From the NCBI GenBank assembly GCA_016193335.1, contig JACPSK010000003.1:23739-87738 (forward strand): a DNA stretch of 64,000 nucleotides, read 5' to 3'. Positions within the stretch are counted from its first letter, which is position 1. Each line of letters begins with the position of its first letter. This document shows positions 4,570-44,822 of this stretch, piece after piece. The stretch is from Candidatus Magasanikiibacteriota bacterium. Its GTDB lineage: Bacteria; Patescibacteriota; Patescibacteriia; Magasanikbacterales; UBA922. Below the pieces are notes generated by a model. The model did no database searches, was not told the origin of the DNA, and worked only from the letters and a program-made list of their open reading frames with translations. Both the position numbers and the translations under genes were made by a program.

Positions 4570-5379
4570 ATGAACAGTGTTCAAGCACTTGTTCTCGGCA
4601 TCATCCAAGGATTGACTGAATTTTTGCCGATTTCATCTTCCGGCCATCTTATTTTTGTACCTCGTTTATTCGGCTGGGCTGACCAAGGCTTAACATTTGA
4701 CGCGGTGGTTCATCTCGGTTCTTTGTTTGCGGTACTTGTGTATTTTCGCTCTCGGATTCTAAGCATGCTCGGGTCTTTGTGCACCAGATCTGTTGGTGAA
4801 TCAGACCGCAAAGAACGCAAGCTTGCTTTTTTACTGGCAGTCTCCATAGTGCCGGCGGCTTTGGGCGGTTTGTTTTTTCAAAATTGGATTGAAAACTCTT
4901 TACGTTCTGTTTTTATTATCTCTTTCAGCCTCATATTCTGGGGCATAATTTTGGGATGGGCAGATAGATTGGCGATAAAAAGAAATAAATCTTTTTCTTT
5001 GGACAATTTGTCTTTCTCCAAAACAGTCTTGATTGGAATTGCTCAGGCTTTGGCTCTGATCCCCGGCACCAGCAGGTCTGGAGTAACGATGAGCGCGGGT
5101 TTATTTCTTGGCCTCGACAAAAAATCAGCCGCTGATTTTTCTTTTCTCATGAGCGTGCCGATTATCGCCATAGCAGGGGCCTTAAAAATATTCGATCTGG
5201 TTCGAACCGGTTGGGGACATATCCAGATTTTGCCTTTGGGCATTGGGTTTTTTGCCGCGGCCCTGAGCGGCTTTCTCGCCATTGCTGGTTTAATGAAGAT
5301 TATTCAGAAATGGAGTTTTATGCCTTTTGTGGTTTATAGGGTAGCAATGGGAATTTTGATACTTGTTTTTTTCGTGTAA
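4570..5379 (+). CDS. uppP: Undecaprenyl-diphosphatase (BacA/UppP)
   Basis: LGIIQGLTEFLPISSSGHL and PGTSRSGVTMSAGL motifs. 8 TM. Confidence 0.9.
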   Translation: MNSVQALVLGIIQGLTEFLPISSSGHLIFVPRLFGWADQGLTFDAVVHLGSLFAVLVYFRSRILSMLGSLCTRSVGESDRKERKLAFLLAVSIVPAALGGLFFQNWIENSLRSVFIISFSLIFWGIILGWADRLAIKRNKSFSLDNLSFSKTVLIGIAQALALIPGTSRSGVTMSAGLFLGLDKKSAADFSFLMSVPIIAIAGALKIFDLVRTGWGHIQILPLGIGFFAAALSGFLAIAGLMKIIQKWSFMPFVVYRVAMGILILVFFV

Positions 5380-7236: not shown

Positions 7237-7959
7237 GTGCTATACTGTGTATATATGATTGAGCTTTGGAATGAGCTTTTGTACAGGCCTTTATTTAATA
7301 TTCTTGTCTGGCTGTACAACAATTGGGCTGAACAAAATTTGGGCTGGGCGGTGGTGTATCTAACGCTTATGTTGCGCGTTTTGCTTCTTCCTTTTACCTT
7401 CATTACTGAACGCAATGCCATTAAGAACAGAACTCTCGTGGCAGAGCTCAGACGTATAGACAAAAGTTACCAGGGGGATCCGATCCTTAAAAAAGAAGAA
7501 ATACGCAAAACCCTGAGAAAGCGCAAAGTGCGTCCTTGGTCCAGTGCTTTTGAACTTGGCATTCAGCTTTTGGTGCTTATTTTGCTGTATCAGGTTTTTT
7601 TGCAAGGTATCAGCGGAGAGAAAGTAAAAGTGCTCAAATCTTTGTATTATTGGGTGGATTTCCCGGGTCTGATTAATACTATTTTTTACGGCTTTGATTT
7701 GGCGGCCAAGTACGACTGGCTCTGGGCCGGAATGGTAGCTTTCTTTTTCGCCGCTTACATCTACCGTGAATACCGGCATGCCAGGCGCGTTCTTCATAAG
7801 AGTGATTTGCTTTATTTCATTTTTTTCCCTACGGGCATATTCTTAACTCTCTGGTATTTGCCCATGGTTAAATCCTTGTTTGTCTTGACATCTTTGTTGT
7901 TTTCTGCTATAGTGCATCGCTTAATTCGGGTTTTTTTGAAGCCACCAAAAAAAATTTAG
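7237..7959 (+). CDS. yidC: Membrane protein insertase YidC/Oxa1 (short form); likely start at 7255
   Basis: LGWAVVYLTLMLRVLLLPF, matching the YidC GWAIILLTIIVR motif, then RKVRPWSSAFELGIQLLVLILLYQ, matching the NPlgGClPmLiQ/PIfiALY region. Confidence 0.75.
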   Translation: MLYCVYMIELWNELLYRPLFNILVWLYNNWAEQNLGWAVVYLTLMLRVLLLPFTFITERNAIKNRTLVAELRRIDKSYQGDPILKKEEIRKTLRKRKVRPWSSAFELGIQLLVLILLYQVFLQGISGEKVKVLKSLYYWVDFPGLINTIFYGFDLAAKYDWLWAGMVAFFFAAYIYREYRHARRVLHKSDLLYFIFFPTGIFLTLWYLPMVKSLFVLTSLLFSAIVHRLIRVFLKPPKKI

Positions 7960-8002: not shown

Positions 8003-8626
8003 ATGGCCGGAGATTCAATAGATAAACTCATGTATTCCTTTGTAATGGAGGATGTCTTAAAAGGCCTATTTATTTATGTGCCGCCTGGTTATGTCGCCTG
8101 CGTGTACGATTTGGGGCGTGGCGTGCTCAAAAAAGTTCTTACTCCCGGTTTGCATTTCAAGATACCATTTTGGCAAAAAGCCAAACTTTTTAACACTCAA
8201 ACTCTTGAGTACAGCATCAATCGGGAATTTGATCCTGCCAATGAAAAAGCGATGGGAGACGTGCCTATCGCGGCGGTAAGCATGGATGGCAAGCGCATGG
8301 CCGTGGAAGGAACCGTGCTTTTACGTCTGGACATTCATCAGATACCTCATATTTGGCAGACCATAGGAGAAGATTTTGTGGCAAAGATTATACGGCCCAC
8401 CATTAGGAGCAGGATTCGCATGGTCGCGAGCAGATTTGATTCAGCGGATATCGTGGGTAAAAAACGCGATTCCGTGGAAACAGAGTTAAAGAATGAGTTG
8501 GAGCGCATATTTTATCCCAGAGGCATTTACGTTGAAAATATCTTATTGAGTGAAATTTCCGGTCTCCGTGAGGCTGAAAAATCCAAACCGAAATCAGACG
8601 CTTCAGACGCCGATGAACAAAGCTGA
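8003..8626 (+). CDS. SPFH/band-7 (HflC/HflK-like) domain protein
   Basis: PGLHFKIPFWQK and the GTVLLRLD block are typical of the SPFH domain. Confidence 0.75.
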   Translation: MAGDSIDKLMYSFVMEDVLKGLFIYVPPGYVACVYDLGRGVLKKVLTPGLHFKIPFWQKAKLFNTQTLEYSINREFDPANEKAMGDVPIAAVSMDGKRMAVEGTVLLRLDIHQIPHIWQTIGEDFVAKIIRPTIRSRIRMVASRFDSADIVGKKRDSVETELKNELERIFYPRGIYVENILLSEISGLREAEKSKPKSDASDADEQS

Positions 8627-21449: not shown

Positions 21450-23057
21450 TCATTTTGTTTGCTCGAGAGAAGTATCTGTCCCGGCCAATTTGAGCCAGCG
21501 TTTTCTGAGACTTTTTTTGATAAGTTCCAACTCTTCGAGTTTCAGCCAATGGCATATCAATATATAGGTAAAGAGACCTATCAAAGCTGAAACCGCGCCT
21601 TGGATAAAAATTCCCCAAAAGCGGGTCATATCAACAAGCGCCGCGAGCGGAGTTTTCATATATTGGACCATGGTAGCCATCATAAAGGCTGCCAATGAAA
21701 TTTTTAACAAACTTTTAAGCATACTTCGTTCGTGGAGGGTTTTGAGTTTAAAGCGAAGCGCGATCCAGGTAAGAGCAAGCTGTATGGCTCCTGATATAGA
21801 AAAAGCGAGAGCCAGACCGGCAACTCCGAAATGGTCTCTCAAACTCAGACTTAACATGAAGTTTAATATGACTCCGGCGGCACTGAGTAAAAAAGGTGTC
21901 CATGTGTCTTGTAGCGCGTAGAAGGCACGGGCAAGGATCAGTATCAAACATTGAGCGAAAAGCGATAATGAGAAGAAGGCGAGGGTGTCTGCGGTCGCTA
22001 TGGTGGAGTTCCAGTCGAATTTTCCTGAACCCAAAACCACGCGCACAATTTGGGCGCGCAAGAGGAGAAAGATAATCGTGGCCGGTACTATAAAAAAAAT
22101 AATTTGTCTCAGACTAAAGGACAGCTGAGATATCATTTCATCTCTTTGACCTTCTGCCATGAGTTTCGCAAGAGTGGGAAAGGCCGCTATGGCGAATGAA
22201 TGGCCGATGATGCCAACCGAGAAGAATTGCAGGTTATTGGCCAGGTTGAATATAGCGATGCTCCCTGCGGCCAAGCTTGAAGCAAGTACCGTCATGATCA
22301 GGAGATTAATTTGTTGAGTGGCAAGGCCCAAAGTCCGTGGCACTATGAGTTTGCCCACTTTCCGGACCAGAGGGTCTTTGAGCGAAAAAATCGGTTTTAA
22401 ACAAAATCCATAATGGAAAAGGGCGGGTATTTGTATAGAAACGTGGAGTATCGCTCCAAGCACTACGCCCCAGGCCAAGCCCGCGGGTCCCAGCCGGGGC
22501 ACAAAAAAAAGAACCCCGAGTATGATTCCGAGATTATACAAGATGGGGCTGAGAGCGAATACTATAAAATTTTTAAAAGAATGCAAAACACTGCTTATCA
22601 CACTGCTCAAGCCAAGCAGAACGGGACTCAGAAACATGATCCGGGTGAGTCTAATGGTGAGTTCCAGTTTTTCGGGAGGAAAATTATTGACCATCTTGCC
22701 CATCAGAATTGGAGTAAGCGCGTACAGCACGGCGCATACGCACAGAAAACCGAGACTGACGATAGTGAGTATATTGTTGGTGAGTTTCCATGCTCTGTCT
22801 TTATCTTTTTGCCAAATTTCCAGGAATACGGGAATAAAACCGGCTGACAAAGCTCCCGCAATGAGTAAATTGAACACAAAATCAGGGATACGAAAGGCGG
22901 CGTAATAGGCATCCAAAATATCCCCGGCTCCAAAGTAATGGGCCAATATTCTGTCTCGCAGCACTCCGATGATCCTGCTTAGAAAAGACGCCGCTCCTAG
23001 AATGATGGCGGCGCCTGTGATGGTTTTTGACTGGGACGAAAATAACTGTGTAATCAT
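21450..23057 (-). CDS. murJ: Lipid II flippase MurJ (MviN)
   Basis: SRIIGVLRDRILAHYFGAG..DAYYAAFRIPDF N-terminal signature, 14 TM. Start set to the internal ATG (ORF track extends to 23195, overlapping corA). Confidence 0.85.
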   Translation of the reverse strand: MITQLFSSQSKTITGAAIILGAASFLSRIIGVLRDRILAHYFGAGDILDAYYAAFRIPDFVFNLLIAGALSAGFIPVFLEIWQKDKDRAWKLTNNILTIVSLGFLCVCAVLYALTPILMGKMVNNFPPEKLELTIRLTRIMFLSPVLLGLSSVISSVLHSFKNFIVFALSPILYNLGIILGVLFFVPRLGPAGLAWGVVLGAILHVSIQIPALFHYGFCLKPIFSLKDPLVRKVGKLIVPRTLGLATQQINLLIMTVLASSLAAGSIAIFNLANNLQFFSVGIIGHSFAIAAFPTLAKLMAEGQRDEMISQLSFSLRQIIFFIVPATIIFLLLRAQIVRVVLGSGKFDWNSTIATADTLAFFSLSLFAQCLILILARAFYALQDTWTPFLLSAAGVILNFMLSLSLRDHFGVAGLALAFSISGAIQLALTWIALRFKLKTLHERSMLKSLLKISLAAFMMATMVQYMKTPLAALVDMTRFWGIFIQGAVSALIGLFTYILICHWLKLEELELIKKSLRKRWLKLAGTDTSLEQTK

Positions 23058-23119
23058 AAACGCGCCCTTTCGCTGATTTAGGGCCTTTTTTACGGGAGAA
23101 AAGAGAAAAGGCCAAAGTT

Positions 23120-24040
23120 TTAAAGCCAATTCCTTCGTTTTAACATTCCTATCGTGATGAGTATAACGCTGAGGAGGACTATGAACATAGTCCATACATA
23201 ACTTGCTTTATGGGCGAAGGGCAAACCTTCTATGTTCATGCCATAGATTCCGGACAATAAAGTAAGCGGTAGCAAGGCCACCGAAATAACCGTGAGCGTG
23301 CCGATTACTTTGTTGGTCCTCCGATTTATGATTGATTCAACCGTTAAATGAAGACCGGAGATCGTTTCTTTGTACGTTTCGATGATAGCCCAGAGTTTAT
23401 CCATGTAGTCTCGCAAATCATCGAAATAAAGAGACAGGTGTTCATCCAGGAATGTTTTTCGTGTGTTGGAGAGATTGGACATGAGGTATCGCTGCGGTTC
23501 TATGATCCTTCTGAAATGAAGGATATTTCTCCTATGTACTGCGAGTTCTCTGATCATGGAAGTGTCCGGCTCATCGCTGAATATTTCATTTTCCAATATA
23601 GACACATGTTTTCCTATATTGTTGAGTATTGGTCTGGCCTCGTGAAACAAAGATTCTATGAGCTTATAAAGCAGATAAGCCGCGTCGTCGTTAAACCATT
23701 CTTTGTTGACGTTTCTGTTGTTCATGCAACGGTAGAAGAAATTTTTTATTTCCTTACTTTTTTTATTTTGTATGGTAATAAGGTATCCATCTCCCAAAAA
23801 TATATTGAGTTCGTGTGTTTTTACTTGTTTTTCAAAATTCTGCCAAGCGGGAAAATGCAGGACTAGGAAGAGATAATCTTTGTAAATGTCAATTTTAGGA
23901 GTTTGACTTTCACTTTGTATGTCTTCAATATCAAGATGGTGGAACTTGTAGTTTTTTTTGAGATAAGAAATCGCCTCTGCGTCTACTTGATCTATATTTA
24001 TCCAGGTGATGTTGTTTTTTTTGAATTCTTTGATCATCAT
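23120..24040 (-). CDS. corA: CorA-family magnesium/cobalt transporter
   Basis: C-terminal two TM helices with YGMNIEGLP (the GMN motif). Confidence 0.8.
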   Translation of the reverse strand: MMIKEFKKNNITWINIDQVDAEAISYLKKNYKFHHLDIEDIQSESQTPKIDIYKDYLFLVLHFPAWQNFEKQVKTHELNIFLGDGYLITIQNKKSKEIKNFFYRCMNNRNVNKEWFNDDAAYLLYKLIESLFHEARPILNNIGKHVSILENEIFSDEPDTSMIRELAVHRRNILHFRRIIEPQRYLMSNLSNTRKTFLDEHLSLYFDDLRDYMDKLWAIIETYKETISGLHLTVESIINRRTNKVIGTLTVISVALLPLTLLSGIYGMNIEGLPFAHKASYVWTMFIVLLSVILITIGMLKRRNWL

Positions 24041-32227: not shown

Positions 32228-34870
32228 ATGCAAAATAAAATCATTATAAAAGGCGCCCGTGAACATAATCTTAAAAACATCAATCTTGAATTGCCTCGCA
32301 ATAAAATGATTGTGTTTACCGGTCTCTCTGGCTCGGGCAAATCTTCTTTGGCTTTTGACACCATTTTTGCCGAAGGTCAGCGCAGATACATAGAGAGTTT
32401 GTCGGCTTATGCTCGGCAGTTTTTGGGCAATATGCAGAAACCGGACGTGGATGAAATCGAAGGTTTGTCCCCGGGCATTTCCATTGATCAAAAGGCCCAC
32501 GGCGCCAATCCACGTTCCACCGTGGCCACCATTACGGAGATTTATGATTATCTCAGGGTTCTCTTTGCCCGTATCGGACGCCCCTATTGCCCGCTATGCG
32601 GCCAAAAAATAGAGAAAATGGCTGTGGATGAAATTAAAGAACGGATTTTGTCTGATATAGAAATACATGGCCTGAGTTTAGTGAAAAAGAAATCTGAGCG
32701 CGAGTTGATTTTGTTTGCCCCGGTCGTGCGTGGCCGCAAAGGAGAATATTATCAGATGCTGTATGACATGTATAACAGTGGTTTTTTGGAAGTGCGCCTT
32801 GACGGTAGATTTAAAAGTTTGCGAGATAGGATAACTCTCTCAAAGCACAAAAAACACAATATAGATATTGTCATAGACAAGATTCCTCTTGCCGGAGGGC
32901 ATCTGGCATCTCATGATTCATCGCGGCTTGCCGAGGCCATTGAAACGAGTGTGGATTTGTCAAATGGTTTATGTTCCATCATATATCCCGACGGCTTTGA
33001 GCATATTTACAGCACCGAATATTCATGCCCGCGGGATGGCTTCAGTTTTCCTGAGATTGAACCCCGTCTTTTCAGTTTCAACAGTCCATACGGATATTGC
33101 GCATTGTGCACCGGACTAGGGACCAAGGAATTATTCAGTGAAGAAATCTGTCCCAGATGCGAAGGACGTCGTCTTAATGAGAACGCGCTCAGCGTGAAAA
33201 TTAATGAAAAAAATATCTGGGAATTGGTACATCTCAGCATAGACGAGGCTCAGATTTTTTTTGACACCTTGCATGTCATCCTTTCGGCGAAGGAAAAAGA
33301 AATAGCCGGGCCGGCGCTTAGAGAAATTCTCAATCGCTTGAGTTTTATGCACGACGTGGGGCTTCATTATCTTTCTTTGGAACGAAGAGCAGGCACCTTA
33401 TCCGGTGGAGAAGCTCAGCGCATCAGACTGGCTTCCCAAGTTGGCCAGCGCCTGGTGGGCGCCATGTATGTGCTTGATGAGCCAACCATTGGCCTGCACC
33501 AGCGGGATAATGACCAGCTTGTCTCCACCTTGCGCAATCTCTGCGACGCGGGGAACACCATTATCGTGGTGGAGCATGATGAAGATACTATTTTGGTCAG
33601 CGATTGGCTTGTGGACATAGGCCCGGGCGCCGGGTCTCACGGAGGAGAAGTGGTATATTCAGGTCCTTTGGATATCTTGCTGGACAAAGACACGAAAATA
33701 AAAAATGCTCGTTCGGCTCCGGCCACGGTGTTTGATTGCCAGATTGCCGGGAACGCGAAGGAATCGCTTACCGGTAGCTATCTTCGAGGGGACAAGAAGA
33801 TAGAAATTCCCAAACAGCGGCGGAAGGTTGACGCCCGTTCAACTTCATTTTTGAAAATAAAAGGAGCTCGTGAGCACAATTTGAAGAATATAAACGTAGA
33901 CATACCTTTGCGTCGTTTTTTGTGCCTTACCGGTGTGTCCGGATCAGGAAAATCCACGCTCATGAATGATATTTTGTATCGGTCAGTGGCCAATAAACTC
34001 AACCATGTAAACAAACGGGTGGGTGAACATTTGAGCGTGCAAGGCATGGAATATATAGATAAAATTATCCGTATAGATCAAAGCCCCATCGGGCGCACGC
34101 CGCGTTCCAATCCGGCTACCTATACCAAAGCCTATGATTTTATACGCGATCTGTTCTCCGCTACTCCGGAAGCAAGAATTCGCGGCTACAAAAAAGGCAG
34201 ATTCAGCTTCAACAGGCCGGGCGGACGTTGCGAAAATTGCGAAGGACGCGGTTCTCTGGAGATTGAAATGCATTTTTTGCCGAGTGTTGAAATAAGCTGT
34301 GATGTTTGCCGCGGTAAAAGATTCAACCATGAGACCCTTCAGGTGCATTATAATGGTAAAAATATTTTTGACGTTTTGAACATGACTATAGAACAGGCGG
34401 AAGATTTTTTTAAAGATATTCCGCCGATTTATGATAAGCTCAGGGTTCTCAATGAAGTGGGTTTGGATTATCTCACCCTTGGACAGTCTGCCACTACTTT
34501 ATCCGGAGGTGAAGCTCAGCGCATTAAACTCAGCAAAGAATTGGGGAAGAGAGATACTACCAAGACTTTGTATTTACTTGATGAACCCACTACGGGATTG
34601 CATTATGATGATGTGCGCAAATTGGTGGATGTTCTCCAGCGCTTGGTGTCGCGCGGCAACACCGTGATGGTGATAGAACATAATCTGGATCTTATCAAAT
34701 GCGCCGATTGGATCATTGATCTCGGCCCTGAGGGAGGAGACAAGGGAGGAGAATTGCTGAAAGCCGGTACTCCCGAGGAACTTTCTAGATATGCCAAGAG
34801 TTACACAGGACAATATCTCAAAAGATACTTTTATGACTCTTCGTCCGGCACACATAAAAAAACTTCCTGA
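32228..34870 (+). CDS. uvrA: Excinuclease ABC subunit A
   Basis: Two ABC ATPase modules ([18 protein letters not shown]), zinc fingers, LSGGEAQRI signature twice. Confidence 0.95.
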
Positions 34871-38128: not shown

Positions 38129-38324
38129 TTTGCGCCTTGATAGTATTTTATTTTCTGTCTTTGAATTTTAATGAGAGGGCTTTGATCAGGAAAAGCGGCC
38201 TGACTTCATAATGTTGCTTTATCCACTGAGCTTAGCTCTATGAGTCCTTGTACTCTCTTCGGAGAGTTTTTTATTTTTTCGTTTTTATGATACCATTATA
38301 AGATAAAGAAAAAGGATTTTTTTT

Positions 38325-38678
38325 ATGTTTTTACTTGCCTTGCGGCGTTTGGCTTTTGATGTGCTTATTGATTTTTTTCGTTTTCCTGTCTGGTGGTTTG
38401 GAGGCGGCTTGAAACGAAGTTTTTTATTTTGCCTTGATTTGTTTAAAGTCGCGAATGCCTATCTTGCCCCCGGGCTCTGGCTCGCCAATATATTTGTTCC
38501 CATGTACGGCCAGCGTGACATCCAAGGCAGAATCACCAGTTTTTTTGTGCGGCTGGTAAACGTCATATTCAGAAGTCTTCTCTTGTTTTGTTGGGCTTTA
38601 TTGTGTTTAAGTATTTTTGTGTTATGGATTTTTATTCTGCCTTTTGTATGTTACATGTTTATTATTTCACTCTGGTAG
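38325..38678 (+). CDS. Hypothetical small membrane protein
   Basis: 117 aa, 3-4 hydrophobic segments, no recognisable motif. Confidence 0.35.
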   Translation: MFLLALRRLAFDVLIDFFRFPVWWFGGGLKRSFLFCLDLFKVANAYLAPGLWLANIFVPMYGQRDIQGRITSFFVRLVNVIFRSLLLFCWALLCLSIFVLWIFILPFVCYMFIISLW

Positions 38679-38801: not shown

Positions 38802-41555
38802 ATGTTGTTCAAGAAAAATGAAGGTTTCCAATTGCTCGTTTGTTCCTCTTGTGGCGCTCTTGGGTATAAGGGGGCCAGAGTTTGTCGGGAGTGCAAAGGG
38901 AGGAGCCTCGGTCGTTTCACTCCCGGCTTTTTTTTGTATTATGGGGAAGCTCTCACTCGTTATCATATTGTTTTGAGAAAATTGAGAGTGAAATTATATA
39001 TATTTCAGATCATAGGAGCTCTGATTTTTTTGTTCGGAGGCATCGCTTTGTTTTTTTGGCAGGTTTACGCGAATGCTTTGTTTGCCGATGTACTCTCGTA
39101 TGAGTTTTGGTTTGCTTACCGGTTCCCCGCTCGGGCGCTTTTTTGGATTTCAGCGGCTTCTGCTTTATATTTATTTTATCAAAAACAGAGTTCCCGTCTT
39201 CGTCAAGAGGATACAGGAGAAATCACCTATGGCGAAGAACCTCGAGCCCTTCTTCAACATCAGCCTCTCGACTGGAAGGATGTCAATTTATTGGATAAAG
39301 ACCATCTGCGAGACATTTCTCAGTTTTTTACCCGTTCGGCGAAAGATACCTTGGAACAGGCTTATGCTTTGGCGGATGAACAGGGCGCGGAGGAGCTGGG
39401 TTCAGCCCATCTTTTTTACGCGCTTCTCTCTGACGCTCAAGTTTCACATATTTTTGCTCGTTTGGGTCTTCCGGCCAAACTCATACAAGCAAAAGTGGCC
39501 GCGGCTCTTTCAAAAAAGAAACGAAAAGATCCTCCCCGCCTTTCCAATGATCTGGCGCAAATATTATTTCATGCCTATGAATTTGCTCTCGAAACCAAAG
39601 ACCGCTATGTGAGAGGCAGCGCGCTTTTGGCCGCCACGGTTGGCCAATCGGAACCTGTTCAGGAATTTTTGTATGATCTGAAAGTAGATCAAAGAAAACT
39701 GTATAACGTGATTGCTTGGGTTCGAATTCGGGAACGCCTCTCAGAAGAACACAGGCTATTTCGCGAAGCGGCCGCGCATTGGAGCAAGTACGGCATGGAC
39801 CGAGCCATGACCGCCGTTGCCACTCCTTTTTTAAACAGCATCAGCCAGGATATTACTTTGGCGGCCAAATATGGGAATCTTTCTCCTTGCGTTGCTCGGG
39901 ACAAAGAAATTCAAGAAATATTCAGAATCATAGAAGGGGGTCGCAACAGTGTTTTGTTGGTGGGCGATCAAGGGGTCGGCAAAATGAGTATTGTGGAAGG
40001 TATTGCTCAGCTCATGCTTCGCGGCGAGATTCCGGTTCGTCTTAAGGAAAAACGACTTGTTCAGATTTCCACTTCCGCTCTCTTGGCAGGCACTACGGTA
40101 AGCGGGGCTCAACAGCGCGTATTACAATTGATGAATGAAGTGGCCAAAGCGAAGAATGTCGTTTTGTTTGTACGCAATATCCACGATTTGATGGGTTCTT
40201 CCGACAGTGGTGGGTCTCAAGGTCTCGACGTTTCCGAAACCTTGGCTGAATATCTGGGCCCGGGCCGTTTTTTGACTCTCGCGACCGCAAGTCCGGAAGC
40301 TTATAAACGTTCTATGGCTCGTTCGGCGATTTCCAAAGTTTTTAGCAAAGTGGATGTGGCCGAGATGACTACTGATCAGGCCATACAGGTTTTGGAATCA
40401 AAAGCAGGTTTTGTCGAGTATCAACAGCATGTGTATTTTTCGTATGACGCGCTTGAACAATGCGTGGATTTGTCGAATAAATTTTTTCATGATCAGAATC
40501 TTCCGGAGAGCGCTTTGTCTCTTATGAGTGAAGTCGCGAGTTTTGTGCGTAGCGAGAGGGGAGAGGGCCAATTGGTAAACCCCGAAGATGTGGGGACTGT
40601 CGTGGGTCAAAAAACCGGAATTCCGGCCAGTAGCATCACAGAGGCCGAATCAGAAAAATTACTGCGTCTGGAACAAGAAATGCACGAGCGGATCGTGGGT
40701 CAGGATGAAGCGGTCATTTCGGTGGCCAATGCTTTGCGTCGCGCCAGAGCACAAATTCGTTCGCAAAAACGCCCTATCGCCAATTTTTTGTTTCTTGGTC
40801 CTACCGGAGTTGGGAAAACCGAGCTCGCCAAAACGATAGCAGACGTGTATTTTGGCGGAGAAAATCGCATGATCCGCGTGGACATGAGCGAATATCAAGA
40901 CAAAACAGGGGTTTATCGTCTCATAGGACAGCCCGGAGAGCAGGGGAGCGGCATTCTCACCGAAGCTGTGCGCGGGAATCCTTTCTCTTTGTTGCTTTTT
41001 GATGAGTTGGAAAAAGCGGATCCGAACATTTTGAATTTGTTTCTTCAAGTTTTTGACGATGGCAGGCTTACGGACAGCGTGGGGAGAGCCGCTGATTTTA
41101 CCAATACCATTATTATAGCCACTTCAAACGCGGGAACGGCCTATGTACAAAAACGCATCAAGGAAGGAGCTCCTTTGAAAGAAATAAAAGAAGAATTGAT
41201 GCGAGATAAACTCCAAGAATATTATCGTCCGGAATTTCTCAATCGTTTTGATGGTATTGTTTTATTTAAACCTCTTGGCCGTGACGAAATCAAAATTATA
41301 GCTTCTTTCATGCTCAAGCGGGTAGCCAAAGATTTGGAACAGCGCGGAGTGGGGCTTCGCGTGGAGGACAGCGCTCTCGAAGCCTTGGCCGCGGTTGGCT
41401 ATGATCCTGAGTTTGGAGCCCGCCCTATGCGCAGAGCCATACAAGACATGGTGGAAGACAAATTGGCTTCTCTCATACTAGAAAATAAACTTAAGCGCCG
41501 GGACACGGTGGTGCTTGGGGAGGGGGCGGAAATAAGGGTGGAATCAGGGCGCTGA
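38802..41555 (+). CDS. Clp/Hsp100-family double AAA+ ATPase with N-terminal C4 zinc-ribbon and two TM helices (membrane-anchored)
   Basis: CxxC-x10-CxxC, two TM helices, two Clp_N repeats, D1 Walker A GDQGVGKMSIVEG, D2 GPTGVGKTELAK plus DELEKA. No long M-domain and no obvious IGF/LGF loop. Confidence 0.8.
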   Translation: MLFKKNEGFQLLVCSSCGALGYKGARVCRECKGRSLGRFTPGFFLYYGEALTRYHIVLRKLRVKLYIFQIIGALIFLFGGIALFFWQVYANALFADVLSYEFWFAYRFPARALFWISAASALYLFYQKQSSRLRQEDTGEITYGEEPRALLQHQPLDWKDVNLLDKDHLRDISQFFTRSAKDTLEQAYALADEQGAEELGSAHLFYALLSDAQVSHIFARLGLPAKLIQAKVAAALSKKKRKDPPRLSNDLAQILFHAYEFALETKDRYVRGSALLAATVGQSEPVQEFLYDLKVDQRKLYNVIAWVRIRERLSEEHRLFREAAAHWSKYGMDRAMTAVATPFLNSISQDITLAAKYGNLSPCVARDKEIQEIFRIIEGGRNSVLLVGDQGVGKMSIVEGIAQLMLRGEIPVRLKEKRLVQISTSALLAGTTVSGAQQRVLQLMNEVAKAKNVVLFVRNIHDLMGSSDSGGSQGLDVSETLAEYLGPGRFLTLATASPEAYKRSMARSAISKVFSKVDVAEMTTDQAIQVLESKAGFVEYQQHVYFSYDALEQCVDLSNKFFHDQNLPESALSLMSEVASFVRSERGEGQLVNPEDVGTVVGQKTGIPASSITEAESEKLLRLEQEMHERIVGQDEAVISVANALRRARAQIRSQKRPIANFLFLGPTGVGKTELAKTIADVYFGGENRMIRVDMSEYQDKTGVYRLIGQPGEQGSGILTEAVRGNPFSLLLFDELEKADPNILNLFLQVFDDGRLTDSVGRAADFTNTIIIATSNAGTAYVQKRIKEGAPLKEIKEELMRDKLQEYYRPEFLNRFDGIVLFKPLGRDEIKIIASFMLKRVAKDLEQRGVGLRVEDSALEALAAVGYDPEFGARPMRRAIQDMVEDKLASLILENKLKRRDTVVLGEGAEIRVESGR

Positions 41556-41683: not shown

Positions 41684-42811
41684 TTGTTATCTGAAATATA
41701 CTGCGCAGGCTCAGTCATTAGAAATTATTTATTGAAAATTTACAGAATTATGTACCTCGGTTATTTCATTGTGTCTTCTCTTCTTTCTCTTCTCATAACC
41801 CCCTTCGTCTATTATGCCATGTATAAGGTCGGGGCGGTGGATAGTCCCCAAGGAGAAAAAAGAAAAATTCATAAGAAAAAAATTCCTCTAGGAGGCGGTT
41901 TGGCCATTTTTTTGAGTTTTTTCATTATCGTTTGGATTGTTTTTTTCGGTTCCGAGGAGCTGGGATCTTACGTGGGTTTTAGACATATCTTGGGCCTTTT
42001 TTTGGCGGGCTCAGTGCTTATGTTTGGCGGTTTTCTTGATGACAAGTGGAGGCTGTCTCCTTCGAAACAACTTTTTTTTTCGATTATCGCGGCTTTACTT
42101 ATTATTGTCTTCGGGATAGGTCCTCACAGTTTTAGCAATCCTTTTGGCGGCTCTTTTGATTTGTCCGGTTTACAGATTAATGTCGGCAATCTTGGACGCT
42201 TGGTAGTTTTCGCGGATTTGCTGGTTTTCGCCTGGCTCATGGGCATGATGTTCACAACCAAATTTTTGGATGGGCTCGACGGTTTGGTTACGGGATTGGT
42301 TATGATAGGGTCTTTGTTCATATTTTTTTTGAGTCTTCAAGATCAATGGCGTCAGCCGGAAGTGGCTCTGTTGTCCATTATTTTCGCGGGGGCTTGCCTC
42401 GGTTTTTTGGTTTGGAACTGGCATCCGGCGAAAATATTTTTGGGAGAGGGAGGTTCTTTGTTCACCGGTTTGGCTCTTGCGGTGCTCGCCATTATTTCAG
42501 AAGGTAAAATAGCGACCACGCTTTTGGTTATGGGCTTGCCTGTTCTCGATGTTTTGCGGGTTATCGTGAGAAGGATGCAGAAAAAAAGATCCATTTTCCA
42601 TGGAGATGATGAGCATTTGCATTTTAAACTTTTGGCTTCAGGTTTGAAACAACATCAGGCAGTGCTTCTCATGTACGCCATTTCTCTTTCTTTCGGGCTG
42701 AGCGCCTTTTTTTTGCAAAGCACTCAGAAAGTATTGGCCCTACTTTTGCTTTTGTTGCTTATGATTTTGCTCGGTGTTTGGTTCGACCGAAGGGAGAAAG
42801 CTTTGCTATAA
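41684..42811 (+). CDS. Polyprenyl-phosphate sugar-1-phosphate transferase, MraY/WecA (GT4) family, WecA/TagO-like
   Basis: KIHKKKIPLGGGLAIF, DDKWRLSP motifs, 10-11 TM. Likely start at the internal ATG near 41750. Confidence 0.8.
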   Translation: MLSEIYCAGSVIRNYLLKIYRIMYLGYFIVSSLLSLLITPFVYYAMYKVGAVDSPQGEKRKIHKKKIPLGGGLAIFLSFFIIVWIVFFGSEELGSYVGFRHILGLFLAGSVLMFGGFLDDKWRLSPSKQLFFSIIAALLIIVFGIGPHSFSNPFGGSFDLSGLQINVGNLGRLVVFADLLVFAWLMGMMFTTKFLDGLDGLVTGLVMIGSLFIFFLSLQDQWRQPEVALLSIIFAGACLGFLVWNWHPAKIFLGEGGSLFTGLALAVLAIISEGKIATTLLVMGLPVLDVLRVIVRRMQKKRSIFHGDDEHLHFKLLASGLKQHQAVLLMYAISLSFGLSAFFLQSTQKVLALLLLLLLMILLGVWFDRREKALL

Positions 42812-42814
42812 TCT

Positions 42815-43291
42815 ATGCGGACATCAGAAATGAAAAAGCATCCGAAACACGTAAAAATGGTCTTTGTTCTTTTCATTTCCGCTTTGGTTTTTCTTCAACT
42901 TTGGAAATTTTATTGGCCAAGCTTGGATCTTGGACTTAAAAATGAGAATCTTCATGTTTTGCACGCCAAGACCTTGTTTCAACAGTATCGGGGCCTTGGA
43001 AAGAGAGAATCTTTGGGCCGCTTTGATGGGATGCTCTTTGTTTTTGATGTCTACGCCAAACACGGGATCGTTATGAGAGATATGATGTTTCCCATAGACA
43101 TTGTGTGGCTGAGGGACGCCAAGGTGGTGGATATTGCTCCGGACGTGCAGACTGAACCCGGGACGCCTGAAAAATATTTGCGCCGGTATTATCCCAGGAT
43201 AGAAGCCAATATGGTTCTTGAACTTCCGGCCGCCTGGGCGCAAAAACATGAGCTAAAGATCGGTGATGAATTGAGAATTTTGGACCCTTAG
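42815..43291 (+). CDS. DUF192-domain protein
   Basis: GMLFVFDV....MRDMMFPIDIVWL..VVDI pattern typical of DUF192 (COG1430). Confidence 0.55.
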   Translation: MRTSEMKKHPKHVKMVFVLFISALVFLQLWKFYWPSLDLGLKNENLHVLHAKTLFQQYRGLGKRESLGRFDGMLFVFDVYAKHGIVMRDMMFPIDIVWLRDAKVVDIAPDVQTEPGTPEKYLRRYYPRIEANMVLELPAAWAQKHELKIGDELRILDP

Positions 43292-43848: not shown

Positions 43849-44457
43849 TCAACTCTGTTGTCTGTTTTTTAAGGCGCTGCTCAAGGTGATCTCATCCGCG
43901 TATTGCAGATCGCTACCCATGGGAAGGCCTCTCGCCAGACGACTCAGTTTCACCGGAATCTCCGATTTTTTGATTTGCTGTTCCAGATACATCATCGTTG
44001 TTTCACCCGGCAGGTCCGGGTTGAGAGCAAGAAGGATTTCTTGAATTTTATCTTGAGATATTCTTTTGAATAATTCAGCAGACTTCAGATGGGCTGTCGG
44101 GTGCTCTGCTTCGCTGTCCAAAGTTCCTCGCAATATATGGTAGAGACCTTTGAATTGACCGGTGCGTTCTATGGCGCGCATGTCTTGCGGCTCTGCCACT
44201 ACGCAGATGAGAGATCTGTCCCGACTGCCGTCAGCGCAGAGGCGGCAAGGTGAAGTATCTGAGAAATCCCAGCATGATTCACAGCTTTTTATGCTCTGCA
44301 TAATATTGCCGAGAGCTTGGGAGAGCTCGGCCACTTCTTTTTTGCCTGATTTTAAGAAGAAAAATACAAAACGTTCGGCGCTGCGTCTTCCCACGCCTGG
44401 TAATTTTTCAAAGCATTTAATCAAAGATTCTATGGCTATGGGATAGGAGGGTATCAT
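43849..44457 (-). CDS. recR: Recombination protein RecR
   Basis: HhH LPGVGRRSAERF, C4 zinc finger CESCWDFSDTSPCRLC, Toprim domain. Confidence 0.9.
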   Translation of the reverse strand: MIPSYPIAIESLIKCFEKLPGVGRRSAERFVFFFLKSGKKEVAELSQALGNIMQSIKSCESCWDFSDTSPCRLCADGSRDRSLICVVAEPQDMRAIERTGQFKGLYHILRGTLDSEAEHPTAHLKSAELFKRISQDKIQEILLALNPDLPGETTMMYLEQQIKKSEIPVKLSRLARGLPMGSDLQYADEITLSSALKNRQQS

Positions 44458-44516
44458 ACAAAAAAATTTGAACTTTTCGCGCGAGGAATACTGCGGAGCT
44501 CAGTTTGAAGGCTGGT

Positions 44517-44822
44517 TTAATTGCTTTTCCCGAAGATATTGGGAAGTCCGCCCATTTCTTTCATTTTCATGGCCATGATGCGCTGTATTTTTTTCAGTGC
44601 GTCTTTGTGAGCTTCTTTGATCGCTTCCTGGAGTTTTTCTTTTTTCGAAGGATCCAAAAGTTCTTCATCTATGGCGAGGCCTGTCATCTGGAGATTGCCA
44701 TCCATGCTCAAGACTACTTTGTCTCCGGCGCTTTTTACGGTTACTGATTCTTTTTCAAGAGCGCTCTGCATTGTTTTGGCTTGGTCTCTCATGTCTTTGA
44801 ATTGTTTGAGTTTGTTGAACAT
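44517..44822 (-). CDS. ybaB: Nucleoid-associated protein YbaB/EbfC
   Basis: MFNKLKQFKDMRDQAKTMQ...MAMKM, 101 aa. recR neighbour. Confidence 0.9.
   Translation of the reverse strand: MFNKLKQFKDMRDQAKTMQSALEKESVTVKSAGDKVVLSMDGNLQMTGLAIDEELLDPSKKEKLQEAIKEAHKDALKKIQRIMAMKMKEMGGLPNIFGKSN

What the first reader, a model, noticed from the sequence alone, without database searches (positions are those of the whole stretch)
38802..41555. Membrane-anchored Clp/Hsp100 ATPase with N-terminal C4 zinc ribbon
The 917-aa ORF has complete ClpC/ClpB-type architecture: two Clp_N repeats, then AAA+ D1 (GDQGVGKMSIVEG) and D2 (GPTGVGKTELAK, DELEKA) modules. It is preceded in-frame by about 130 residues containing a CxxC-x10-CxxC zinc-ribbon and two strongly hydrophobic helices (LYIFQIIGALIFLFGGIALFFW, ALFWISAASALYLFY).

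Canonical Clp unfoldases are soluble. A zinc-ribbon plus TM anchor would localise this unfoldase at the membrane. Neither a long ClpB-type M-domain nor an obvious ClpP-docking IGF/LGF loop is visible.

The gene sits just after mraZ-rsmH-ftsL and before a WecA/MraY-family transferase. That position suggests a role in quality control of envelope or division membrane proteins, replacing an absent FtsH-like activity or acting with it.
Basis: partly seen in the sequence, partly recalled or inferred. Interest (0 to 1): 0.65.

Follow-up and report, generated by a model that had tools for sequence, protein, structure and literature searches.

The report
Membrane-tethered Clp ATPase lacking gripping loops
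A conserved gene of tiny groundwater bacteria (Patescibacteria) encodes a Clp/Hsp100-type ATPase that is anchored in the membrane but has lost the parts such machines normally use to grip and unfold proteins, so it is a new variant whose job is probably not classical unfolding.

Summary
The 917-aa ORF (38802-41555, +) is real and its start is correct. The N-terminal extension is conserved from Met1 in over 150 species of Candidatus Magasanikbacteria and related Patescibacteria.

Architecture:
- a DnaJ-type CxxCxGxG zinc finger
- a two-helix membrane hairpin
- a disordered linker of about 45 residues
- a ClpA-like N-domain, then D1 and D2
- no M-domain and no ClpP-docking loop

1. D1 is a pseudo-ATPase: Walker A is GKM, Walker B is RN/NN instead of DE, and the Arg fingers are lost.
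2. Neither ring has the aromatic pore-1 loop. D1 has KYR replaced by TVS, and D2 has a four-residue deletion that removes GYVG. This holds in 0/80 orthologues, while the D2 catalytic motifs are about 100% conserved.
3. The tightest genomic link is not ftsL. It is an uncharacterised 117-aa C-terminally anchored membrane protein immediately upstream (83/83 long-form loci, often translationally coupled). A WecA-like GT4 transferase lies downstream in most loci.

A D2-less short form of about 600 aa exists in other lineages.

Best reading: a membrane-tethered, D2-driven, non-threading Hsp100 derivative, Torsin-like in logic, that works with the small membrane partner. Its function is inferred, not shown. 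It is a new variant of a known kind.

The parts
38802..41555 (+). 917-aa membrane-tethered Clp/Hsp100-like ATPase (whole gene)
   Evidence: ORF. Family hits. 100%-coverage homologues. AF2 model with pLDDT 83.7.
38841..38894 (+). C4 zinc module (C14, C17, C28, C31), DnaJ-type CxxCxGxG finger
   Evidence: PF00684 matches 15 of 25 family N-termini, best E 1e-4. Anti-TRAP and BSD2_CRD also match. The motif is present in 83/120 and 67/80 orthologues and in nearly all distant representatives.
38904..38993 (+). Beta-hairpin plus conserved juxtamembrane motif (G37...FLYWGEPLTRYHIxLRKARR)
   Evidence: This is the most conserved N-terminal stretch. AF2 gives strands 35-40 and 43-47, a helix from residue 53, and pLDDT of about 90.
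38994..39059 (+). TM1 (residues 65-86)
   Evidence: KD19 is 2.46 and WW-octanol is -13.7 kcal/mol. Mean K+R before it is 4.2 against D+E 0.5.
39060..39128 (+). Short extracytoplasmic aromatic loop (residues 87-109, invariant W103)
   Evidence: AF2 places a short helix at 100-104.
39129..39182 (+). TM2 (residues 110-127; invariant or near-invariant W115 and Y126)
   Evidence: KD19 is 1.16 here and 1.65 for the family median. WW-octanol is -8.1 here and -12.7 for the family median. AF2 gives a helix at 110-130.
39183..39314 (+). Disordered charged tether (residues 128-171)
   Evidence: pLDDT is 43-70 and the sequence is poorly conserved.
39315..39779 (+). Clp_N double-repeat N-domain (residues ~172-326)
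   Evidence: The ClpA model aligns from residue 178. AF2 shows eight helices. The Pfam Clp_N hit is weak.
39837..40571 (+). D1 pseudo-ATPase module (residues ~346-590). Walker A is GDQGVGKM (39963-39986), the pore loop is AGTTVSGAQ (40086-40112) and the Walker B position is LFVRNI (40164-40181).
   Evidence: Alignment to ClpC and ClpB. Census of 80 orthologues. Representatives.
40644..41552 (+). D2 active ATPase module plus D2-small (residues ~615-917). Walker A is at 40797-40820. The shortened pore loop IGQPGEQGSGIL is at 40923-40958. Walker B DELEK is at 40989-41015. The R-finger R815 is at 41244-41246 and sensor-2 R874 at 41421-41423.
38325..38678 (+). 117-aa conserved partner gene ('sm117'). 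It has a cytoplasmic amphipathic helix, an invariant loop NIFVPMYGQxDxQGR, and a C-terminal TM anchor (residues ~85-117).
   Evidence: It is present directly upstream in 80/80 Magasanikbacteria loci and 3/3 divergent long-form loci. The gap mode is 0-10 nt. It has no Pfam or NCBIfam family. AF2 pLDDT is 93.5.
41684..42811 (+). WecA/TagO-like polyprenyl-phosphate sugar-phosphate transferase (GT4). The true start is probably the ATG at 41750.
   Evidence: PF00953. WecA scores 92 bits against MraY at 63 bits, both below cut-off. It lies downstream of the Clp-like gene in 66/80 loci and in 6 of 7 divergent loci.
42815..43291 (+). DUF192 protein, the next gene in the Magasanikbacteria cluster
   Evidence: 68/80 loci.
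38252..38277 (+). Terminator-like hairpin plus T-run between ftsL and sm117
   Evidence: consensus match only.

Best explanation
Shown:
- The gene encodes a Patescibacteria-specific derivative of the Clp/Hsp100 double-ring AAA+ family.
- A DnaJ-type zinc finger and a conserved juxtamembrane motif sit on the cytoplasmic face.
- A two-helix hairpin (N-in, C-in) anchors the protein.
- A flexible tether of about 45 residues carries a ClpA-like N-domain, D1 and D2.
- D1 is a conserved but catalytically dead module. D2 keeps every catalytic motif.
- Neither ring has an aromatic pore-1 loop. There is no M-domain and no ClpP-docking loop.

Inferred:
- The protein forms a ring whose N-domain face points to the membrane.
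- D1 serves assembly and D2 acts as an ATP-driven switch.
- It does not thread or unfold polypeptides processively, and it does not feed a protease.
- It instead remodels or regulates a membrane partner.
- The obligately co-encoded partner, often translationally coupled, is the 117-aa C-terminally anchored membrane protein. It co-occurs only with D2-containing forms.
- The likely functional target area is lipid-carrier-dependent envelope glycan synthesis, because of the adjacent WecA-like GT4.
- The logic resembles Torsin, a pore-loop-less Clp-like AAA+ protein controlled by transmembrane cofactors.
For: Architecture and conservation:
-.

D1 degeneration and pore-loop loss:
- HMMER alignments to ClpC 6em9 and ClpB 6oax.
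- 0/80 orthologues have an aromatic residue in either loop. D1 Walker B is never DE. D2 Walker A, Walker B, sensor 1, R-finger and sensor 2 are about 100% conserved.
- The replacement loops are themselves nearly invariant, so they are functional rather than decaying.

Missing accessory elements:
- M-domain: ClpC residues 406-461 and ClpB residues 405-530 have no counterpart.
- ClpP loop: none in 79/80.

Topology:
-.

Partner gene:
- 80/80 plus 3/3 loci, with gaps of 0-10 nt.
- Absent from loci encoding the D2-less short form.

GT4 adjacency:
- It persists across different flanking contexts, including L092, where both flanks differ.

Short forms:
- Forms lacking D2 keep the zinc finger, TM hairpin, Clp_N and D1. 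The core role therefore cannot depend on a threading motor.

Torsin precedent:
- PMC5425593.
Against: - No experiment supports any step of the proposed function.
- The ring geometry, with the entry face toward the membrane on flexible tethers, is what a membrane-protein extractase would need.
- A few distant long-form members keep GAPPGY or GAPPGF in D2, so the ancestor probably threaded substrates.
- A nearly invariant Tyr705 lies five residues before the shortened D2 loop and might partly substitute for the lost pore Tyr.
- Downstream synteny (GT4, L21, recR, dnaB) is broadly conserved in these streamlined genomes. Adjacency to GT4 could therefore be inherited gene order. One divergent locus (L090) has no GT4 downstream.
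- Hexamer formation and any physical contact with sm117 or GT4 were not modelled.
Confidence: 0.5

Rival explanations
1. Membrane-protein unfoldase or extractase. The tethered ring pulls damaged division or envelope membrane proteins out of the bilayer, like FtsH or Msp1 but without its own protease.
For: - The protein is membrane-anchored, and the N-domain (entry) face points toward the membrane.
- The D2 ATPase is intact.
- The Clp_N domain and the DnaJ-type zinc finger are client-binding modules in other chaperones.
- Envelope genes lie nearby.
- Some distant relatives keep a D2 pore Tyr or Phe.
Against: - No aromatic pore-1 loop in either ring in 80/80 orthologues, and the GYVG segment is deleted.
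- D1 is dead.
- D2-less short forms keep the same N-terminal and D1 architecture and the same GT4 neighbour.
- The ftsL linkage is lineage-specific.
Confidence: 0.25
2. Membrane-localised ClpB-like disaggregase that cooperates with DnaK/DnaJ.
For: - The best NCBIfam hit is ClpB, and the D2 region is about 45-50% identical to ClpB D2.
- In two short-form loci the gene directly follows hrcA-grpE-hsp20-dnaK-dnaJ.
- The window carries the dnaK cluster about 23 kb upstream.
- The zinc finger is DnaJ-type.
Against: - The M-domain, which couples ClpB to Hsp70, is absent.
- Pore tyrosines are absent.
- The score is 556 bits against the ClpB cut-off of 1232.
Confidence: 0.1
3. ClpP-coupled protease ATPase, as the public annotation says ('ATP-dependent Clp protease ATP-binding subunit').
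For: The names come from NCBI and JGI annotation. There is general homology to ClpC and ClpA.
Against: - The helix-loop-helix carrying IGF/LGF is deleted, and no [ILMV]G[FLIM] occurs in that region in 79/80 orthologues.
- There is no pore loop to deliver substrate.
- No clpP motif occurs in the window.
Confidence: 0.03
4. Start-codon artefact. The hydrophobic N-terminus is not translated and the real protein is a soluble Clp ATPase.
For: - There is no obvious Shine-Dalgarno sequence before 38802, and the upstream gap is an unusual 123 nt in this genome.
- About 15 of 120 database entries are called about 35 residues shorter.
Against: - The N-terminus is conserved from M1 and F3, through the zinc finger, to both helices in more than 100 homologues.
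- A profile of residues 1-175 alone retrieves 208 cluster representatives.
- AF2 pLDDT is 82-95 over residues 1-130.
- Even the shorter calls retain both TM helices.
Confidence: 0.02

Closest known systems
ClpA (E. coli-type class I Clp ATPase)
   Same: The order is N-domain, D1, D2 with no M-domain. The whole of residues 178-903 aligns collinearly to the ClpA model and to PDB 1ksf.
   Different: - No IGL ClpP loop.
- D1 is catalytically dead.
- No pore tyrosines.
- Extra zinc finger and membrane hairpin.
- The score is 475 bits against a cut-off of 993.
ClpB/Hsp104 disaggregases
   Same: It gives the best profile score. D2 and D2-small are highly similar and, like ClpB, there is no ClpP loop.
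   Different: - No M-domain.
- No KYR or GYVG pore loops.
- D1 is inactive.
- Membrane-anchored.
ClpC / ClpE (Gram-positive)
   Same: The top PDB sequence and fold matches are ClpC. ClpE also starts with a C4 zinc module.
   Different: - No M-domain and no (L/V)GF loop.
- The zinc module here is DnaJ-type and is separated from the ATPase by two TM helices.
- ClpE and ClpC are soluble, active unfoldases.
Torsin ATPases with LAP1/LULL1 (eukaryotic ER and nuclear envelope)
   Same: Torsins are AAA+ proteins related to Clp/Hsp100 D2. They lack aromatic pore loops, are membrane-associated, and depend on transmembrane partner proteins (PMC5425593). This is the same logic as a pore-loop-less ring with an obligate small membrane partner.
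   Different: - Torsin is a single ring, luminal, and lacks its own Arg finger.
- Here there are two tiers, the protein is cytoplasmic, and the D2 Arg finger is retained.
- No homology beyond the AAA+ core is claimed.
FtsH and Msp1/ATAD1 (membrane-anchored AAA+)
   Same: An N-terminal membrane anchor holds a cytoplasmic AAA+ ring next to the bilayer.
   Different: Those have aromatic pore loops, and FtsH also has a protease domain. They belong to the classical AAA clade, not to Clp/Hsp100.
ClpI (Actinomycetota; PMC10149685)
   Same: This is another recently recognised Clp class found by sequence analysis. Its ClpIb subtype lacks the LGF loop.
   Different: ClpI keeps intact ATPase and translocation motifs and a short M-domain. 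It is soluble.

Membership tests
Clp/Hsp100 class I (double AAA+) | Clp_N domain followed by two AAA+ modules, with a ClpB_D2-small C-terminal domain | tested here: met
Clp/Hsp100 unfoldase (functional sense) | Aromatic-hydrophobic pore-1 loops (KYR in D1, GYVG in D2) | tested here: not met
   TVS replaces KYR. A four-residue deletion removes GYVG. 0/80 orthologues have an aromatic residue in either loop.
Clp/Hsp100 unfoldase (functional sense) | Two active nucleotide sites (Walker A GKT/S and Walker B DE in both D1 and D2) | tested here: not met
   D1 has GKM and RN/NN, and ERRF is replaced by SKVF. D2 is intact.
ClpB | Long coiled-coil M-domain inserted in D1-small | tested here: not met
   ClpB residues 405-530 have no counterpart. 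AF2 shows no insertion. TIGR03346 scores 556 against a cut-off of 1232.
ClpC | Short M-domain plus an LGF/VGF ClpP-docking loop | tested here: not met
   ClpC residues 406-461 are unmatched. The loop region is gapped.
ClpA | N-D1-D2 without an M-domain | tested here: met
   The alignment is a single collinear stretch.
ClpA | IGL ClpP-docking loop and the curated model score | tested here: not met
   No tripeptide is present. The score is 475 bits against a cut-off of 993.
ClpE | N-terminal zinc finger directly preceding D1, with an M-domain and a ClpP loop, in a soluble protein | tested here: not met
   The zinc finger is followed by two TM helices and a Clp_N domain. There is no M-domain and no loop.
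DnaJ-type zinc finger (PF00684 CxxCxGxG) | Paired CxxCxGxG motifs | tested here: inconclusive
   15 of 25 family N-termini match, with best E 1e-4, all below the gathering score. The window protein itself matches only generic zinc-ribbon models at E 0.04.
Integral membrane protein (N-in/C-in hairpin) | Two TM helices predicted by a dedicated tool, or shown experimentally | tested here: inconclusive
   Hydropathy, positive-inside bias and AF2 helices all support the hairpin. TMHMM and DeepTMHMM were not available.
Torsin-like (works-like comparison only) | ATPase controlled by a transmembrane cofactor | not testable with these tools
   Only the gene linkage to sm117 is shown.
ClpP-dependent protease system | clpP present in the genome | not testable with these tools
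   No ClpP motif occurs in the 64-kb window.
Anti-phage defence system | Match to a known defence protein family in a defence-island context | tested here: not met
   PADLOC gives only partial AAA+ domain matches. The neighbouring genes have no hits. The locus is core and syntenic.

The most novel reading that the evidence does not exclude
The small C-terminally anchored membrane protein, the pore-loop-less membrane Hsp100 ring and the WecA-like GT4 form a Patescibacteria-specific three-gene machine. In it, an unfoldase scaffold has been converted into an ATP-driven regulator or assembly factor of lipid-carrier glycan initiation. This would be a bacterial counterpart of the Torsin-cofactor principle. 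The D2-less short forms would represent a purely scaffolding version.
Probability: 0.2. Interest if true: 0.8.

Novelty: new variant of a known kind. Interest (0 to 1): 0.6.

Why it matters
Hsp100/Clp proteins are the textbook example of ring machines that pull polypeptides through a pore with conserved tyrosines. This lineage keeps the double-ring scaffold and one working ATPase under strong selection in over 150 species. It has also been bolted to the membrane, has lost both gripping loops, the M-domain and the protease-docking loop, and has acquired an obligate small membrane partner.

If the non-threading reading is right, it is a natural experiment in what an Hsp100 ring can do besides unfolding. 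It would also be a bacterial parallel to Torsins, whose mechanism is still unresolved.

The finding flags a systematic mis-annotation ('ATP-dependent Clp protease ATP-binding subunit'). It also identifies a candidate envelope-biogenesis module in Patescibacteria, whose cell biology is almost unknown.

Tried and rejected
- **Literature.** Searches for any prior description found nothing on this family. Terms covered Patescibacteria or CPR with ClpB, ClpP, FtsH, Hsp100 and Magasanikbacteria. Only comparators turned up: a Torsin review and the ClpI paper. The lipocone paper mentioning Patescibacteria and ClpP is unrelated.
- **Protease partners in the window.** Six-frame motif scans for ClpP, FtsH, Lon and canonical pore loops found none. 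This says nothing about the rest of the genome.
- **Locus search with the N-terminal alignment.** The search for related loci failed because no stretch was conserved enough. It was replaced by a D1-linker alignment.
- **Fold search of sm117.** The PDB search gave no match better than E 1.9. The afdb50 library was unavailable.
- **sm117 in short-form loci.** An sm117 HMM found no hit.
- **Anti-phage defence reading.** PADLOC gave only generic AAA+ domain hits, so this reading was rejected.
- **MraY reading of the downstream GT4.** Rejected as unproven. The mraY model scores 63 bits against a cut-off of 192, and WecA scores higher.
- **ftsL linkage as the functional clue.** Rejected because it is lineage-specific.
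Full report
**Observation**

The window carries an uninterrupted 917-codon ORF at 38802-41555 on the + strand. G+C is about 43-45% and flat across the region.

- Pfam finds AAA_2 (657-817, E 4e-49), ClpB_D2-small (825-904), AAA_lid_9 (524-588), and only a weak Clp_N hit (187-235, E 0.004).
- NCBIfam gives ClpB, ClpA, ClpG/K and ClpV models, all far below their curated cut-offs (ClpB 556 against 1232, ClpA 475 against 993). The ClpA model aligns in a single stretch, 178-903.
- An identical protein is recorded from a Candidatus Magasanikbacteria MAG. At least 120 homologues of 54-62% identity cover 100% of the query, N-terminus included.

**Start codon and N-terminus**

- In an alignment of 120 homologues, M1 and F3, the segment G37...FLYWGEPLTRYHIxLRKARR, both hydrophobic helices, and W103, W115 and Y126 are conserved or invariant.
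- A profile of residues 1-175 alone retrieves 208 cluster representatives from 1.84 billion.
- In orthologous loci the start lies 0-10 nt after the stop of the upstream gene, or overlaps it by 4 nt.
- The window is unusual only in having a 123-nt gap and no obvious Shine-Dalgarno sequence.

**Anatomy of the N-terminal module**

AlphaFold2 with a 106-sequence alignment gives pLDDT 83.7 overall and 82-95 for residues 1-130. The model shows:
- a small beta-rich module (11-47)
- one long helix (53-90)
- a short helix (100-104)
- a helix at 110-130
- a disordered stretch (131-157)
- an eight-helix Clp_N domain (178-326)
- D1 and D2, with no insertion between them

Scanned member by member, 15 of 25 family N-termini match the DnaJ CxxCxGxG model (best E 1e-4). 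Others match Anti-TRAP and BSD2_CRD. The module is therefore a DnaJ-type zinc finger rather than a generic ribbon. The window protein's own copy is slightly off-pattern.

The four cysteines are present in 83/120 and 67/80 orthologues and in nearly all distant relatives. A minority, including the closest homologue, have lost them.

Membrane helices and topology:
- TM1 is strongly hydrophobic (KD19 2.46).
- TM2 is weaker here (KD19 1.16, family median 1.65). On an octanol scale it is clearly membrane-like (-8.1 kcal/mol, family median -12.7, against -2.2 for the best soluble segment).
- Lys and Arg are enriched before TM1 (4.2 against 0.5 acidic residues) and after TM2.
- This fits an N-in/C-in hairpin that keeps the zinc finger and the ATPase in the cytoplasm.
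- The scales were coded by me. No dedicated predictor was available.

**The ATPase rings**

HMMER alignments to S. aureus ClpC (6em9) and E. coli ClpB (6oax) show the following.

| Element | Canonical | This protein |
|---|---|---|
| D1 Walker A | GEPGVGKT | GDQGVGKM |
| D1 pore loop | AGTKYRGEFE | AGTTVSGA-QQ |
| D1 Walker B | LFIDELH | LFVRNIH |
| D1 Arg fingers | ALERRFQ | AISKVFS |
| D2 pore loop | GAPPGYVGHDDGG | GQP----GEQGSG (the GYVG tyrosine is deleted) |

D2 Walker A and B, sensor 1 (TSN), the Arg finger (PEFLNRFD) and sensor 2 (GARPMRR) are intact.

ClpC residues 406-461 and ClpB residues 405-530, the M-domains, have no counterpart. The ClpC segment carrying the ClpP-docking motif falls in a gap.

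In 80 species-level orthologues:
- 0/80 have any aromatic residue in either pore-1 segment
- D1 Walker B is never DE
- D1 Walker A is mostly GKM
- the D2 catalytic motifs are 93-100% identical
- 79/80 have no [ILMV]G[FLIM] in the ClpP-loop region

The replacement loops (AGTTVSGAQ, IGQPGQQGTG) are themselves almost invariant. This is a selected state, not decay. Fold search returns ClpC, ClpB and ClpC1 as expected.

**Family breadth**

The N-terminal profile finds two groups:
- about 40 full-length representatives (876-963 aa)
- a distinct class of about 590-631 aa that ends naturally, at ...VPYTKILK, just after D1

The short forms have the zinc finger, TM hairpin, Clp_N and D1, with no D2.

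Named members come from Candidatus Magasanikbacteria, Falkowbacteria (both forms) and Komeilibacteria, and from unclassified Patescibacteria.

Across these representatives:
- the zinc finger is nearly universal
- D1 is variably degenerate
- D1 never has a pore aromatic
- the D2 loop is shortened, except in a few that retain GAPPGY or GAPPGF

A pattern search of GTDB species genomes found 152 genomes with the Magasanikbacteria-type protein.

**Genomic context**

In 80 Magasanikbacteria loci, a homologue of the 117-aa ORF at 38325-38678 is immediately upstream on the same strand in 80/80. The other neighbours are less constant:

| Neighbour | Loci (of 80) |
|---|---|
| 117-aa ORF (sm117) | 80 |
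| rsmH | 71 |
| mraZ | 68 |
| DUF192 | 68 |
| ftsL | 67 |
| GT4 | 66 |
| L21 | 65 |

- Three divergent long-form loci also have an sm117 homologue directly upstream (HMM E 1e-41 to 8e-24), although mraZ and ftsL are absent. These loci are Falkowbacteria L091, L092 and L090.
- In L092 both flanks differ (DUF218 upstream; YceG and ribosomal genes downstream). The triad sm117, Clp-like gene and GT4 is still kept, with gaps of 2 and 6 nt.
- Four independent short-form loci all have the GT4 directly downstream but no sm117. Two of them follow dnaK-dnaJ.
- sm117 therefore tracks D2-containing forms, and GT4 tracks both forms.

The GT4 scores best against WecA (92 bits) and less against MraY (63 bits). 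Both scores are below cut-off.

sm117 itself:
- It has no Pfam, NCBIfam or PADLOC family.
- All homologues are annotated 'hypothetical'.
- AF2 models it confidently (pLDDT 93.5) as two long helices joined by the invariant loop NIFVPMYGQRDxQGR.
- Only the last ~33 residues are TM-grade hydrophobic, so it is a C-terminally anchored protein with a cytoplasmic head.

A terminator-like hairpin lies between ftsL and sm117.

**Interpretation**

Shown:
- The protein is a Clp/Hsp100 homologue that is membrane-anchored and conserved.
- It has a dead D1 and a live D2.
- It has no aromatic pore loops, no M-domain and no ClpP loop.
- It is genetically coupled to sm117 and usually to a WecA-like GT4.

Inferred:
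- D1 serves ring assembly. This rests on established knowledge that nucleotide-binding but non-hydrolysing tiers do this in NSF D2 and ClpA D1.
- D2 acts as an ATP switch.
- The ring does not thread substrates. Pore tyrosines are required for translocation in Clp/Hsp100 proteins, as summarised in PMC5425593 and PMC10149685.
- sm117 is a cofactor or client.

The nearest functional analogy is Torsin with its transmembrane cofactors. I put about 0.5 on this reading.

The geometry fits it, and some relatives keep a D2 aromatic residue. A ClpB-like disaggregase role gets about 0.1, a ClpP partner role about 0.03, and a start-codon artefact about 0.02.

**Novelty**

No paper in the searchable library describes this family. 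Public annotations call it a Clp protease ATP-binding subunit or an AAA family ATPase. It fails defining features of ClpA, ClpB, ClpC and ClpE, so it should not be filed under any of them. It is a new variant within the Clp/Hsp100 kind.

**Limits**

- There was no dedicated TM predictor, no multimer modelling and no access to whole genomes. The presence of clpP, ftsH, canonical clpB or mraY elsewhere is therefore unknown.
- Synteny in these streamlined genomes is broadly conserved, which weakens the GT4 inference.
- All functional statements are inference.

Noticed in passing
window 38325-38678 (+): An uncharacterised 117-aa protein with invariant motifs FPxWW and NIFVPMYGQxDxQGR and a C-terminal TM anchor. 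It matches no known family. It is always encoded directly upstream of long-form Clp-like genes.
   Followed up: yes
L004-L009 (e.g. L006:8001-9896): A short form of about 600 aa in Falkowbacteria and other Patescibacteria. It has the zinc finger, TM hairpin, Clp_N and D1 only, and ends at ...VPYTKILK. GT4 lies directly downstream, and dnaK-dnaJ lie directly upstream in two loci.
   Followed up: partly
window 38252-38277 (+): A terminator-like hairpin (ACTCTCTTCGGAGAGT plus a T-run) lies between ftsL and sm117. It suggests that sm117 and the Clp-like gene form a transcription unit separate from mraZ-rsmH-ftsL.
   Followed up: no
window 39780-39815 (residues 327-338): The segment SKYGMDRAMTAV is nearly invariant across the family, yet AlphaFold2 gives it pLDDT below 50. 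It may be a conserved linear motif or an inter-subunit contact.
   Followed up: no
window 40914-40916 (Tyr705): A nearly invariant tyrosine lies five residues before the shortened D2 pore loop, where ClpB and ClpC have Ser. It might partly replace the lost pore Tyr.
   Followed up: no
window 41684-41750: The mechanical GT4 ORF starts at TTG 41684. The conserved protein probably starts at the ATG at 41750 (MYLGYFIV...).
   Followed up: no
window 21450-23195 (-), 4570-5379 (+), 7237-7959 (+), 8003-8626 (+): The window also encodes MurJ (lipid II flippase), BacA/UppP, a YidC-like insertase and an SPFH/Band-7 protein. The organism therefore handles undecaprenyl-linked precursors, although no bona fide mraY is seen in the window.
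   Followed up: partly
L010, L011, L016-L019 and others (record titles): Many GTDB records carrying this Magasanikbacteria-type locus are titled 'uncultured Gammaproteobacteria bacterium'. OZ246405.1 (L011) is the same contig as L001. These titles look like placeholder mislabels.
   Followed up: no
L002:15874-16236: In one related genome a bAvd/23S_rRNA_IVP-family gene sits between recR and ybaB. It is absent at the same place in the window (44457-44517).
   Followed up: no
window 34791-34870: The mechanical uvrC ORF overlaps the end of uvrA by 80 nt. The true uvrC start is probably further downstream.
   Followed up: no
L001:5687-6547: An IS1595-family DDE transposase lies just upstream of mraZ in a related closed genome. 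This may explain the variable upstream context.
   Followed up: no
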